From: Escherichia coli
GTDB taxonomy: Bacteria; Pseudomonadota; Gammaproteobacteria; Enterobacterales; Enterobacteriaceae
DNA length: 64,000 nucleotides
Assembly: GCF_009931435.1 (NCBI RefSeq)
Contig: NZ_CP043414.1
Reading direction: 5' to 3' (one strand)
The notes beneath the pieces were generated by a model. That model was not told the origin of the DNA and searched no databases. It saw nothing but the letters and a program-made list of their open reading frames with translations. Below, one piece after another: positions 41,821 through 42,232 of this stretch. A program made the position numbers and the translations under genes. Within the stretch, counting starts at the first letter, position 1. Each line of letters opens with the position of its first letter.

Positions 41821-41934
41821 AAGAAAACATCCCCTGAGAGTTTAATTTTCGTCAAGATGCGTGGCGGACAATCCCCTGCCAGCGAAACGTTATCTTCCTG
41901 CTCCAGGTTTGCGACAAATTGGTGCGTCGCAAAA

Positions 41935-41950
41935 ACGCAAACGTTTAGCT
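41935..41950. promoter_or_regulatory. Putative PurR operator upstream of ghxP
   Basis: ACGCAAACGTTTAGCT matches the PurR box core GCAAACGTTT, about 115 bp upstream of the ghxP start. Weaker related motifs at 41881-41896 and 42075-42090. Confidence 0.45.
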
Positions 41951-42232
41951 CCGCGCATACAAAACGGGTGGTAAAAAAAGCAAACGATTATCCGGCGATC
42001 ATAGCGGCTTTTTCAACCGAAGTTTGCTGCTTTTTTCTCTTTTATTGTCTTGACGATGAAAAACCAGGCAATTGATGCGCAAACGTTATCGTCGATGCGC
42101 AAGATTGCAGCGTTATCGAACCGTATACCGTTCAGGATTGCGATAAAAAATCGTCTGAGATGACAAAAATATTGCGGCTAAAAAGTGTACTTTTACACTG
42201 GCGAAGAAACGCCGGTAACATACAATTAAAGC

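What the first reader, a model, noticed from the sequence alone, without database searches (positions are those of the whole stretch)
41881..42090. Cluster of PurR-box-like motifs upstream of the purine permease gene ghxP
Three words with the AAACGTT core lie upstream of ghxP: AGCGAAACGTTATCTT (41881-41896), ACGCAAACGTTTAGCT (41935-41950, best match to the PurR box) and TGCGCAAACGTTATCG (42075-42090). Multiple sites could give graded purine-dependent repression of guanine/hypoxanthine uptake, or some may belong to the neighbouring ryjA promoter.
Basis: partly seen in the sequence, partly recalled or inferred. Interest (0 to 1): 0.35.

Follow-up and report, generated by a model that had tools for sequence, protein, structure and literature searches.

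The report
Known PurR operators controlling ghxP
Two of the three flagged words are real, already documented binding sites through which the purine repressor PurR shuts off the guanine/hypoxanthine importer gene ghxP; the third is a decayed remnant, and a fourth site on the promoter's -10 element was missed.

Summary
The three AAACGTT words exist (the third is off by one base) and cluster more than chance allows. With a PurR matrix built from published sites, 41935-41950 and 42077-42092 are the two best hits in the 64-kb window and score like genuine operators. The word at 41881-41896 scores below every known site.

Boxes 2, 3 and 4 are conserved in about 80 Enterobacteriaceae species; box 1 never reaches threshold. 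Box 3 keeps its place when a GST gene separates ghxP from ryjA, so it serves ghxP, not ryjA.

All of this is already in the literature: the ChIP-chip PurR peak "ryjA/yjcD" names box 3, RegPrecise lists box 2, a 2015 prediction lists box 1, and ghxP sits in the PurR-1 iModulon.

Verdict: an ordinary, known PurR-repressed promoter with several operators. The by-products are more interesting. Box 1 is positionally homologous to a strong box in Serratia and Yersinia. The ghxP leader also folds into a covariation-supported structure that is absent from Rfam and contains box 2.

The parts
40471..41820 (-). ghxP (yjcD) coding sequence, guanine/hypoxanthine transporter; ATG at 41820
   Evidence: 449-aa ORF; annotated ghxP in 5,419 E. 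coli genomes and in K-12
41830..41835 (-). Shine-Dalgarno AGGGGA of ghxP
   Evidence: CAGGGGA is invariant or nearly so in alignments A1 and A4
41881..41896 (-). Word 1 (minus strand AAGATAACGTTTCGCT; -76 from the ATG, about +86..+101 from the predicted start). Sub-threshold PurR-like word: a decayed homologue of a strong box in Serratia and Yersinia, and the candidate 3' strand of leader helix P2
   Evidence: PWM 2.4-7.2 bits, rank 24-129 in the window, below all 27 training sites. Never reaches 7 bits in 81 orthologous regions. Aligns column for column with ACGTAAACGATTACGT (18.7 bits) of Serratia and ACGGAAACGATTACGT (16.6 bits) of a Yersinia-like locus. One covarying pair with box 2
41855..41960 (-). 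Structured domain of the ghxP mRNA leader. P1 is 41960-41955 with 41860-41855; hairpin A is 41933-41926 with 41915-41908; hairpin B is 41876-41873 with 41864-41861; the candidate P2 is 41949-41940 with 41891-41882
   Evidence: On 73 distinct leaders, 93.5% of cells pair against 87.2 +/- 0.3 shuffled, and 16 pairs show compensatory change against 8.5 +/- 1.8 (0 of 500 shuffles); slid controls pair 31-57%. P1 alone gives 0 of 500. No Rfam family at E <= 10
41935..41950 (-). Box 2, downstream operator (minus strand AGCTAAACGTTTGCGT; -130 from the ATG, about +32..+47)
   Evidence: Best PurR PWM hit in the window, 19.6-21.6 bits, p about 3e-8 to 1e-7. Present in 81 of 81 Enterobacteriaceae regions, with TAAACGTTTGC invariant. 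Also present in Erwinia, Serratia, Rahnella, Hafnia and Pectobacterium. Listed as the RegPrecise yjcD site at -130 in the supplement of PMC4576408
41978..41993 (-).
   Evidence: 9.3-10.9 bits in E. coli, expected 0.02-0.04 in the 412-bp intergenic region. Scores 13.3-14.2 bits as AGATAATCGTTTGCCT in many genera. Present in 79 of 81 Enterobacteriaceae regions and in Erwinia, Serratia, Rahnella, Hafnia, Edwardsiella and a Yersinia-like locus. In Mangrovibacter, Dickeya and Pectobacterium GATAAT is kept but CGTTTGC is lost, so the -10 alone does not force the half-site
41987..42016 (-). Predicted ghxP sigma-70 promoter: -35 TTGAAA (42016-42011), 18-bp spacer, -10 GATAAT (41992-41987); predicted start near 41981 (K-12 4,278,318)
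   Evidence: Only promoter-like site on this strand (10 of 12 matches). TTGAAA-N18-[GT]ATAAT is present in 81 of 81 regions with an invariant spacer length. The start site is inferred, not measured
42077..42092 (-). Box 3, upstream operator (minus strand ACGATAACGTTTGCGC; -272 from the ATG, about -111..-96)
   Evidence: Second-best PWM hit in the window, 18.2-18.5 bits, p 3e-7. Present in 80 of 81 regions, always 99 bp from box 4. It is the motif reported for the ChIP-chip PurR peak ryjA/yjcD (PMC3159470 Table 1) and for ghxP by Sastry 2019
42093..42112 (-). Conserved block of unknown role just upstream of box 3 (consensus tGTtgc.a.aTTGCGCAt.g)
   Evidence: Information content is as high as in the box itself across 79 unique sequences. 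No PurR PWM hit and no fitting promoter hexamers
42233..42373 (+). ryjA/sraL sRNA gene, the divergent neighbour; not a target of these boxes
   Evidence: Rfam RF01408, 153 bits. In most genera it lies about 1.1 kb from ghxP with a GST gene in between

Best explanation
The region is the PurR-controlled promoter and leader of ghxP.

Promoter and operators:
- One sigma-70 promoter (TTGAAA-18-GATAAT, 42016-41987) drives ghxP with a leader of about 160 nt.
- PurR, loaded with its corepressors hypoxanthine or guanine, binds three operators on the ghxP side.
- Box 4 (41978-41993) covers the -10 hexamer and the start site and would exclude RNA polymerase.
- Box 2 (41935-41950) is the most deeply and universally conserved. 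It sits in the early transcribed region at a variable distance from the promoter and would act as a roadblock or clearance block, as at purB and purR.
- Box 3 (42077-42092) is specific to Enterobacteriaceae and lies exactly 99 bp upstream of box 4. It probably acts as an auxiliary site that raises occupancy.

Logic: GhxP imports exactly the two bases that activate PurR, so the circuit is a negative feedback on purine uptake.

Word 1 (41881-41896) is not a working operator in E. coli. It is the decayed homologue of a strong distal box that is still present in Serratia, Yersinia-like and Edwardsiella leaders.

Shown here: the sequences, matrix scores, conservation, spacing and promoter footprint. 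Taken from papers: PurR occupancy of the region with adenine, and PurR/adenine-dependent repression. Inferred: the start site, which box does what, and the roadblock mechanism.
For: - Matrix scores: boxes 2 and 3 rank 1 and 2 in 64 kb on three PurR matrices built without the ghxP site. They fall inside the leave-one-out range of 27 known sites.
- Conservation in 80 species representatives plus the window: box 2 in 81/81, box 3 in 80/81, box 4 in 79/81.
- Promoter hexamers with an invariant 18-bp spacer are present in 81/81.
- Box 4 and box 2 persist in Erwinia, Serratia, Rahnella and Hafnia.
- The covarying leader helix P1 starts at 41960, so transcription must begin upstream of it, which fits the predicted promoter.
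- Literature: a ChIP-chip peak covers the whole intergenic region, seen only with adenine (log2 2.08), with box 3 as its motif (PMC3159470). The RegPrecise site equals box 2. ghxP belongs to the PurR-1 iModulon and is repressed by adenine (PMC6892915 and PMC8376909). PMC3809563 cites PurR-dependent repression by adenine from DREAM5 and reports a 4-fold drop with HAP.
- Hypoxanthine and guanine as corepressors: PMC8376909.
Against: - No measured start site for ghxP could be found in any held paper or supplement, so all positions relative to +1 are predictions.
- ChIP-chip resolution (a 630-bp peak) cannot tell which boxes are occupied.
- Box 4 scores low in E. coli (about 10 bits; only 2 of 27 known sites score lower). 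Part of its conservation is owed to the -10 hexamer.
- The invariance of box 2 could owe something to the RNA structure in which it is embedded.
- Cho 2011 did not list yjcD among genes with significant expression change.
- A role for box 3 at about -104 has no established precedent of strong repression. Its fixed spacing is unexplained.
Confidence: 0.85

Rival explanations
1. One reading: all three words, including 41881-41896, are working PurR sites that together give graded repression.
For: Word 1 has the AAACGTT core and the central CpG. A 2015 regulon-inference paper predicted it as a yjcD site at -76 (PMC4576408). Positionally homologous boxes in Serratia (18.7 bits), a Yersinia-like locus (16.6) and Edwardsiella (15.5) are strong. 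Its ACGTTT core is about 90% conserved.
Against: It scores 2.4-7.2 bits, rank 24-129 in the window, lower than every one of 27 known sites in leave-one-out scoring. It carries C-G where G13 and C14 are found in 26 and 27 of 27 known sites. It is below 7 bits in all 81 Enterobacteriaceae regions.
Confidence: 0.1
2. Box 3 (42077-42092) belongs to the ryjA/sraL promoter and makes the sRNA respond to purines.
For: The box lies in the divergent ryjA-ghxP intergenic region. Cho 2011 labelled the ChIP peak 'ryjA/yjcD'.
Against: The box is 141-156 bp upstream of the ryjA start at 42233. No PurR-like hit of 7 bits or more lies nearer to the ryjA promoter. In Salmonella, Enterobacter, Klebsiella, Kosakonia and others, sraL is about 1.1 kb away behind a GST gene, yet box 3 stays exactly 99 bp from the ghxP -10 box.
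Confidence: 0.03
3. The conservation of words 1 and 2 reflects an RNA helix in the ghxP leader rather than PurR binding. Word 1 keeps its AACGUU core because it pairs with the palindromic core of word 2.
For: RNAalifold on 20 leaders pairs the two words. One pair covaries (C-G 27, U-A 25, U-G 13, other 8; 25 double-change cells against 1.2 +/- 3.6 shuffled), with C-G and U-A states in several separate clades. The surrounding helices P1, A and B covary strongly. In the Yersinia-like leader the two boxes are complementary over 9 nt, including a compensatory U-A.
Against: For P2 the phylogeny-robust measure is not significant (1 pair against 0.5; 232 of 500 shuffles). The A-U pair at alignment columns 32/110 is broken in 11 sequences. 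RNAalifold on 73 sequences prefers a local hairpin for box 2. Any two PurR-type palindromes are complementary by construction. RNA pairing cannot explain why box 2 matches the PurR matrix at 20 bits, nor the ChIP peak.
Confidence: 0.3
4. The cluster is a chance accumulation of a short AT-rich word in an intergenic region.
For: AAACGTT is only 7 bases long, and 16 loci occur in the window.
Against: Full 16-bp scores have p about 1e-7. The two boxes are the top two hits of 128,000 positions. They are conserved across about 80 species and lie under a PurR ChIP peak.
Confidence: 0.01

Closest known systems
Classical PurR operators of the E. coli pur regulon (purF, purT, purHD, purC and others)
   Same: A 16-bp imperfect palindrome with a central CpG and a GTTTGC half-site. 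Repression depends on hypoxanthine or guanine. The box overlaps core promoter elements (box 4 on the -10). Boxes 2 and 3 score like purMN, xanP, yieG and purC.
   Different: All three ghxP boxes pair one near-perfect half (CGTTTGC) with a weak half (GATAA[C/T] or AGCTAAAC). Three boxes spread over 115 bp replace a single strong box.
Downstream 'roadblock' operators of purB and of purR itself (two operators in the transcribed region); own knowledge of Rolfes & Zalkin 1990 and He & Zalkin 1992, plus the purB +184 entry in the supplement of PMC4576408
   Same: Box 2 lies in the transcribed leader. Its distance from the promoter varies from 43 to 205 bp among genera, as expected for a position-independent block to elongation.
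   Different: At ghxP the downstream box is combined with a -10-overlapping box and an upstream box. The roadblock action itself is not shown.
PurR control of the other nucleobase permease genes, xanP and adeP/yieG
   Same: NCS2-type purine permease genes bound by PurR in ChIP-chip and repressed by adenine. yieG also has two boxes, at -147 and -115.
   Different: For ghxP, Cho 2011 reported binding but did not list it among genes with significant expression change. RegulonDB had no entry in 2019 according to Sastry et al..
Bacillus subtilis pbuG (a GhxP homologue) under double control by PurR and a guanine riboswitch (own knowledge: Johansen 2003, Mandal 2003)
   Same: A hypoxanthine/guanine permease gene with a DNA-level purine repressor and a structured 5' leader.
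   Different: B. subtilis PurR is unrelated to E. coli PurR and senses PRPP. The enterobacterial leader has no Rfam match, including the purine riboswitch. It has no evident terminator or SD-sequestering platform, and no ligand is known.

Membership tests
PurR operator (PUR box), E. coli PurR regulon | 16-bp near-palindrome with central CpG whose matrix score lies within the range of known sites: box 2 (41935-41950) | tested here: met
   19.6-21.6 bits, rank 1 in the window; scores higher than 19 of 27 known sites in leave-one-out
PurR operator (PUR box), E. coli PurR regulon | Same criterion: box 3 (42077-42092) | tested here: met
   18.2-18.5 bits, rank 2; scores higher than 13 of 27 known sites
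PurR operator (PUR box), E. coli PurR regulon | Same criterion: box 4 (41978-41993) | tested here: inconclusive
   9.3-10.9 bits in E. coli (higher than 2 of 27 known sites); 13.3-14.2 bits in many genera; the right half CGTTTGC is perfect and the left half is the -10 hexamer
PurR operator (PUR box), E. coli PurR regulon | Same criterion: word 1 (41881-41896) | tested here: not met
   2.4-7.2 bits, below all 27 known sites; lacks G13/C14, which are present in 26 and 27 of 27 sites
PurR operator (PUR box), E. coli PurR regulon | Conserved at the orthologous position in related genomes | tested here: met
   Box 2 in 81/81, box 3 in 80/81, box 4 in 79/81, word 1 in 0/81 at 7 bits or more. Boxes 2 and 4 are also present outside Enterobacteriaceae
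PurR operator (PUR box), E. coli PurR regulon | Occupied by PurR in vivo in a purine-dependent way | not testable with these tools
   Reported at the level of the region: ChIP-chip peak at K-12 4,275,855-4,276,485, log2 2.08 with adenine and none without (PMC3159470). Individual boxes are not resolved
PurR operator (PUR box), E. coli PurR regulon | The target gene is repressed by purines through PurR | not testable with these tools
   Reported: PurR-1 iModulon membership (PMC6892915); repression by adenine (PMC8376909); PurR-dependent repression cited from DREAM5 (PMC3809563)
Regulatory element of the ryjA/sraL promoter | Lies at or near the ryjA promoter and travels with ryjA in evolution | tested here: not met
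   The nearest box is 141-156 bp from the ryjA start. It stays with ghxP when a GST gene separates the two
Known cis-regulatory RNA families (Rfam 15, including purine riboswitch RF00167) | Covariance-model match of the ghxP leader | tested here: not met
   No match at E <= 10 in 41780-42240 on either strand; only sraL passes the gathering threshold in 40000-44000
Looping operator pairs of LacI-family repressors (lac O1-O3, gal OE-OI) | Two operators held at a fixed, helically phased distance | tested here: inconclusive
   Spacing between box 3 and box 4 is exactly 99 bp in every locus that has both. 99 bp is 9.4 turns at 10.5 bp per turn, which is not clearly in phase
Looping operator pairs of LacI-family repressors (lac O1-O3, gal OE-OI) | The repressor bridges two operators (tetramer or a helper protein) | not testable with these tools
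   Own knowledge: PurR is a dimer lacking the LacI C-terminal tetramerisation helix. No helper protein is known

The most novel reading that the evidence does not exclude
The ghxP mRNA leader (41855-41960) is an undescribed, conserved cis-regulatory RNA of Enterobacteriaceae. It is a tight three-way junction (P1, a long arm with hairpin A, and hairpin B) with invariant junction nucleotides. The PurR operator at about +32..+47 is co-encoded in it as one strand of a helix, and word 1 forms the other strand. ghxP would then have a second, post-transcriptional layer of control, as B. subtilis pbuG has a riboswitch alongside its repressor. The same bases would be read once as DNA by PurR and once as RNA. 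The fold itself is well supported. A regulatory function, a ligand and the P2 pairing are not.
Probability: 0.3. Interest if true: 0.55.

Novelty: already known. Interest (0 to 1): 0.22.

Why it matters
As a finding it confirms textbook logic: the importer of hypoxanthine and guanine is shut off by the repressor that those two bases activate. Its practical value lies in annotation.
- The literature names a different single box in each source: -272 in ChIP-chip and iModulon work, -130 in RegPrecise, -76 in a 2015 prediction. None of the papers I could search shows the sequence of the box on the -10 hexamer, which is the most deeply conserved together with -130.
- The comparative picture gives a small, clean example of operator turnover. 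The core and proximal downstream boxes are ancestral in Enterobacterales. The upstream box was gained in Enterobacteriaceae. The distal downstream box decayed there but is strong in Serratia and Yersinia.
- If the structured leader proves to be regulatory, ghxP would join the few enterobacterial genes in which a repressor operator is embedded in a functional RNA structure.

Tried and rejected
- A second promoter at box 3: hand inspection of the conserved block found no -35/-10 pair with a 15-18 bp spacer on either strand (consensus; the scan lists only the 42016-41987 promoter on the ghxP strand). Rejected.
- A measured ghxP start site: searched the supplements of Conway 2014, Romero 2014, Kim 2012 and Ettwiller 2016. 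Nothing was held or found. The Thomason 2015, DREAM5 and Papakostas 2013 papers are not held.
- CsrA control of the leader (three conserved GGA motifs, one on the SD): Potts 2017 lists ghxP with no CLIP-seq peak. It is 'activated by CsrA' together with codB, tsx, xanP, adeP and sdaC, which points to an indirect effect through the PurR regulon. Not supported.
- A known riboswitch or RNA family in the leader: none at E <= 10.
- Single-sequence folding of the E. coli leader: z-score +0.2, uninformative.
- A local terminator-like hairpin of box 2 RNA plus the U-run: weak, shows no variation, untestable.
- By eye, CRP, IHF, Fur and CytR consensus sequences were compared with the conserved block upstream of box 3; no convincing match.
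- Other matrix hits in the window, such as 48578-48593 at 12 bits, lie inside genes (uvrA) and sit at chance level.

Full report
**Observation.** The window is E. coli but not K-12 (best identity 99.4%). Reading 41400-42700 confirms AGCGAAACGTTATCTT at 41881-41896 and ACGCAAACGTTTAGCT at 41935-41950. The third string is at 42076-42091, one base off. In PurR register, with a central CpG, the box is 42077-42092 (GCGCAAACGTTATCGT). AAACGTT occurs 21 times in the window against 11.05 +/- 3.27 in shuffles. Three of the 16 distinct loci falling within 196 bp has P = 0.015.

**Gene map.**
- yjcE: minus strand, 38670-40319.
- ghxP: minus strand, 40471-41820.
- Intergenic region: 41821-42232.
- ryjA/sraL: plus strand, 42233-42373 (Rfam, 153 bits).
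- soxR: minus strand, 42366-42830.
- soxS: plus strand, 42916-43239.

**Matrix scoring.** I built PurR matrices from the sites in Table 1 of Cho et al. 2011 (PMC3159470), leaving out the ryjA/yjcD entry. Three matrices were used: all 27 sites, the 15 classical ones, and a symmetrised version.
- On all three, 41935-41950 is the best hit of the 64-kb window on both strands (19.6-21.6 bits on the oriented matrices, p about 3e-8 to 1e-7).
- 42077-42092 is second (18.2-18.5 bits, p 3e-7). The next hits score about 12 bits.
- In leave-one-out scoring these two exceed 19 and 13 of the 27 known sites.
- The first word, 41881-41896, scores 2.4-7.2 bits, ranks 24-129, and lies below every known site. 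It has C-G where G13 and C14 occur in 26 and 27 of 27 sites.
The expected number of such hits in the 412-bp intergenic region is 0.02-0.04.

**Promoter.** The only sigma-70-like site on the ghxP strand is TTGAAA (42016-42011), an 18-bp spacer, and GATAAT (41992-41987). The -10 hexamer occupies positions 2-7 of box 4. With a start near 41981, the positions are:

| Element | Position relative to +1 |
|---|---|
| Box 4 | -12..+4 |
| Box 2 | +32..+47 |
| Word 1 | +86..+101 |
| Box 3 | -111..-96 |

No measured start site could be found, so these positions are inferred.

**Comparative evidence within Enterobacteriaceae.** A scan of one genome per species returned 80 loci with GhxP at 90% identity or more. 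Counting the window as well:
- Box 2 is present in 81 of 81 upstream regions.
- Box 3 is present in 80 of 81. It is deleted in Pluralibacter gergoviae.
- Box 4 is present in 79 of 81. Its right half is lost in Mangrovibacter while GATAAT stays.
- Word 1 never reaches 7 bits.
- TTGAAA-N18-[GT]ATAAT is present in all 81.
- The footprint shows invariant GTTGAAA, GATAATCG, TAAACGTTTGC and ACGATAACGTTTGCGCAT.
- Box 3 is always exactly 99 bp from box 4. Box 4 to box 2 varies from 43 to 205 bp.

**Comparative evidence outside the family**:
- The promoter, box 4 and box 2 persist in Erwinia, Serratia, Rahnella, Hafnia and a Yersinia-like locus.
- Box 4 is lost in Dickeya and Pectobacterium.
- Box 3 is absent. 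Rahnella has a 12-bit box 121 bp upstream of its box 4.
- So boxes 4 and 2 are ancestral, and box 3 is a gain of Enterobacteriaceae.

**The ryjA alternative.** Box 3 lies 141-156 bp upstream of the ryjA start, and no PurR-like hit lies closer. sraL is adjacent to ghxP only in Escherichia, Citrobacter werkmanii and Trabulsiella. In Salmonella, Enterobacter, Klebsiella, Kosakonia and others it is about 1.1 kb away, behind a 222-aa glutathione-S-transferase gene that ends just before box 3 (Pfam GST). Box 3 therefore travels with ghxP.

**What is already published.**
- Cho 2011 lists a PurR ChIP-chip peak 'ryjA/yjcD' (4,275,855-4,276,485). It has log2 2.08 with adenine and is absent without. Its motif, ACGATAACGTTTGCGC, is box 3.
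- Sastry 2019 places ghxP in the PurR-1 iModulon and reports a motif at 4,278,206, which is the position of box 3.
- The supplement of PMC4576408 shows AGCTAAACGTTTGCTT at -130 (box 2) as the RegPrecise site. It adds AAGATAACGTTTCGCT at -76 (word 1) as a new prediction.
- Kozmin 2013 cites PurR-dependent adenine repression of yjcD from DREAM5, and a 4-fold drop with HAP.
- PMC8376909 states that ghxP is repressed by PurR in response to hypoxanthine, and that hypoxanthine and guanine are the corepressors.
- A text search for the sequences of boxes 2 and 4 found no paper. Box 4 appears to be undescribed in the searchable literature.

**What word 1 is.** Two non-exclusive answers emerged.
- First, it is positionally homologous to strong PurR boxes in other families: Serratia marcescens ACGTAAACGATTACGT (18.7 bits, -88) and a Yersinia-like locus ACGGAAACGATTACGT (16.6 bits, -73). 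These align with it column for column around the central CpG. Edwardsiella carries ACGTAATCGATTACGT (15.5 bits, -54) in a similar distal position. The E. coli word therefore looks like a decayed distal operator.
- Second, in the mRNA leader it is complementary to box 2. One pair covaries (C-G 27, U-A 25, U-G 13, other 8), spread over several clades. This helix (P2) rests on that single pair, and the phylogeny-robust measure is not significant (232 of 500 shuffles). It remains a hypothesis.

**By-product: a structured leader.** On 73 distinct leaders, the named structure gives these results:
- 93.5% of cells are paired, against 87.2 +/- 0.3 in shuffles.
- 16 pairs show compensatory changes, against 8.5 +/- 1.8 (0 of 500 shuffles).
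- Slid controls pair only 31-57%.
- Compensatory pairs per helix: P1 has 5 of 6, hairpin A has 7 of 8, hairpin B has 3 of 4.
- P1 alone is significant. It is a long-range helix (41960-41955 with 41860-41855) that encloses about 100 nt.

Rfam has no match at E <= 10, and I found no paper on it. Single-sequence folding is uninformative (z = +0.2). No terminator or SD-sequestering platform is evident. A CsrA idea found no support. The function is unknown. The fold does show that transcription starts upstream of 41960, which supports the promoter assignment.

**Mechanism.** PurR loaded with hypoxanthine or guanine binds box 4 and occludes the -10 and the start site. It binds box 2 and blocks clearance or elongation; the variable distance of box 2 from the promoter fits a roadblock. 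It binds box 3, an auxiliary site whose rigid 99-bp spacing suggests an interaction I cannot explain. As far as I know, PurR is a dimer without a tetramerisation domain. Because GhxP imports the corepressors themselves, the loop is a direct negative feedback on uptake. Only the sequence features, scores and conservation are shown here. Occupancy and repression come from the cited papers. The division of labour among the boxes is inference.

**Verdict.** Two of the three words are real operators and one is not. One operator was missed, and ryjA is not involved. The phenomenon is already known, so interest is low. The structured leader and the operator turnover are the only parts a specialist might find new.

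Noticed in passing
window 41855-41960 (minus strand): The ghxP mRNA leader folds into a conserved three-way junction (long-range helix P1 plus hairpins A and B). Compensatory changes are abundant across 73 Enterobacteriaceae leaders. There is no Rfam match at E <= 10, and I found no paper describing it.
   Followed up: partly
window 42093-42112 (minus strand): A 20-bp block directly upstream of box 3 (consensus tGTtgc.a.aTTGCGCAt.g) is as conserved as the PurR box. TTGCGCAT repeats the strong half of box 3 at a distance of 20 bp in direct orientation. No promoter hexamers or known factor consensus fit.
   Followed up: partly
window 41978-42092: The distance between box 3 and box 4 is exactly 99 bp in every locus that has both, although about 35 bp of the intervening DNA is poorly conserved. 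The neighbouring segments show many length changes.
   Followed up: partly
window 41936: This strain has C at 41936 (plus strand), making box 2 ...GCGT instead of the K-12 ...GCTT and raising its score by about 2 bits. Only 5 of 5,395 complete E. coli genomes are identical over 41925-41966.
   Followed up: yes
L006 1487-2155; L083-L087, L089, L090: In most Enterobacterales a 220-222-aa glutathione-S-transferase gene sits between soxR/sraL and ghxP, co-directional with ghxP and ending just before box 3. Escherichia, C. werkmanii and Trabulsiella lack it. Hafnia and Edwardsiella instead have a 438-aa amidohydrolase gene upstream.
   Followed up: partly
window 42342-42373: ryjA/sraL and soxR converge and overlap. 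The soxR stop codon (42366-42368) lies inside the 3' end of sraL, and one 13-bp hairpin (42342-42372) looks like a shared bidirectional terminator.
   Followed up: no
window 42095-42117 (minus strand): Specific to E. coli: CGATAACG...TTGCGCAT occurs twice in tandem (42117-42110 with 42102-42095, and 42091-42084 with 42082-42075). This looks like a local partial duplication of box 3, and the extra copy is absent in other genera.
   Followed up: no
L034, L038, L040, L047, L056, L072, L074-L079 (between box 4 and box 2): Klebsiella, Raoultella, Kluyvera, Pseudocitrobacter and others carry insertions of about 45-160 bp between the -10 box and box 2. The structured leader downstream keeps its length. 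The inserts were not examined (possibly small repeat elements).
   Followed up: no
window 41830-41900 (minus strand): Three conserved GGA motifs in CsrA-like context (CAGGAAGAU, GGCAGGGGAUUGU, and the SD CAGGGGAUGU). Potts 2017 reports no CsrA CLIP-seq peak for ghxP, so this remains a resemblance only.
   Followed up: partly
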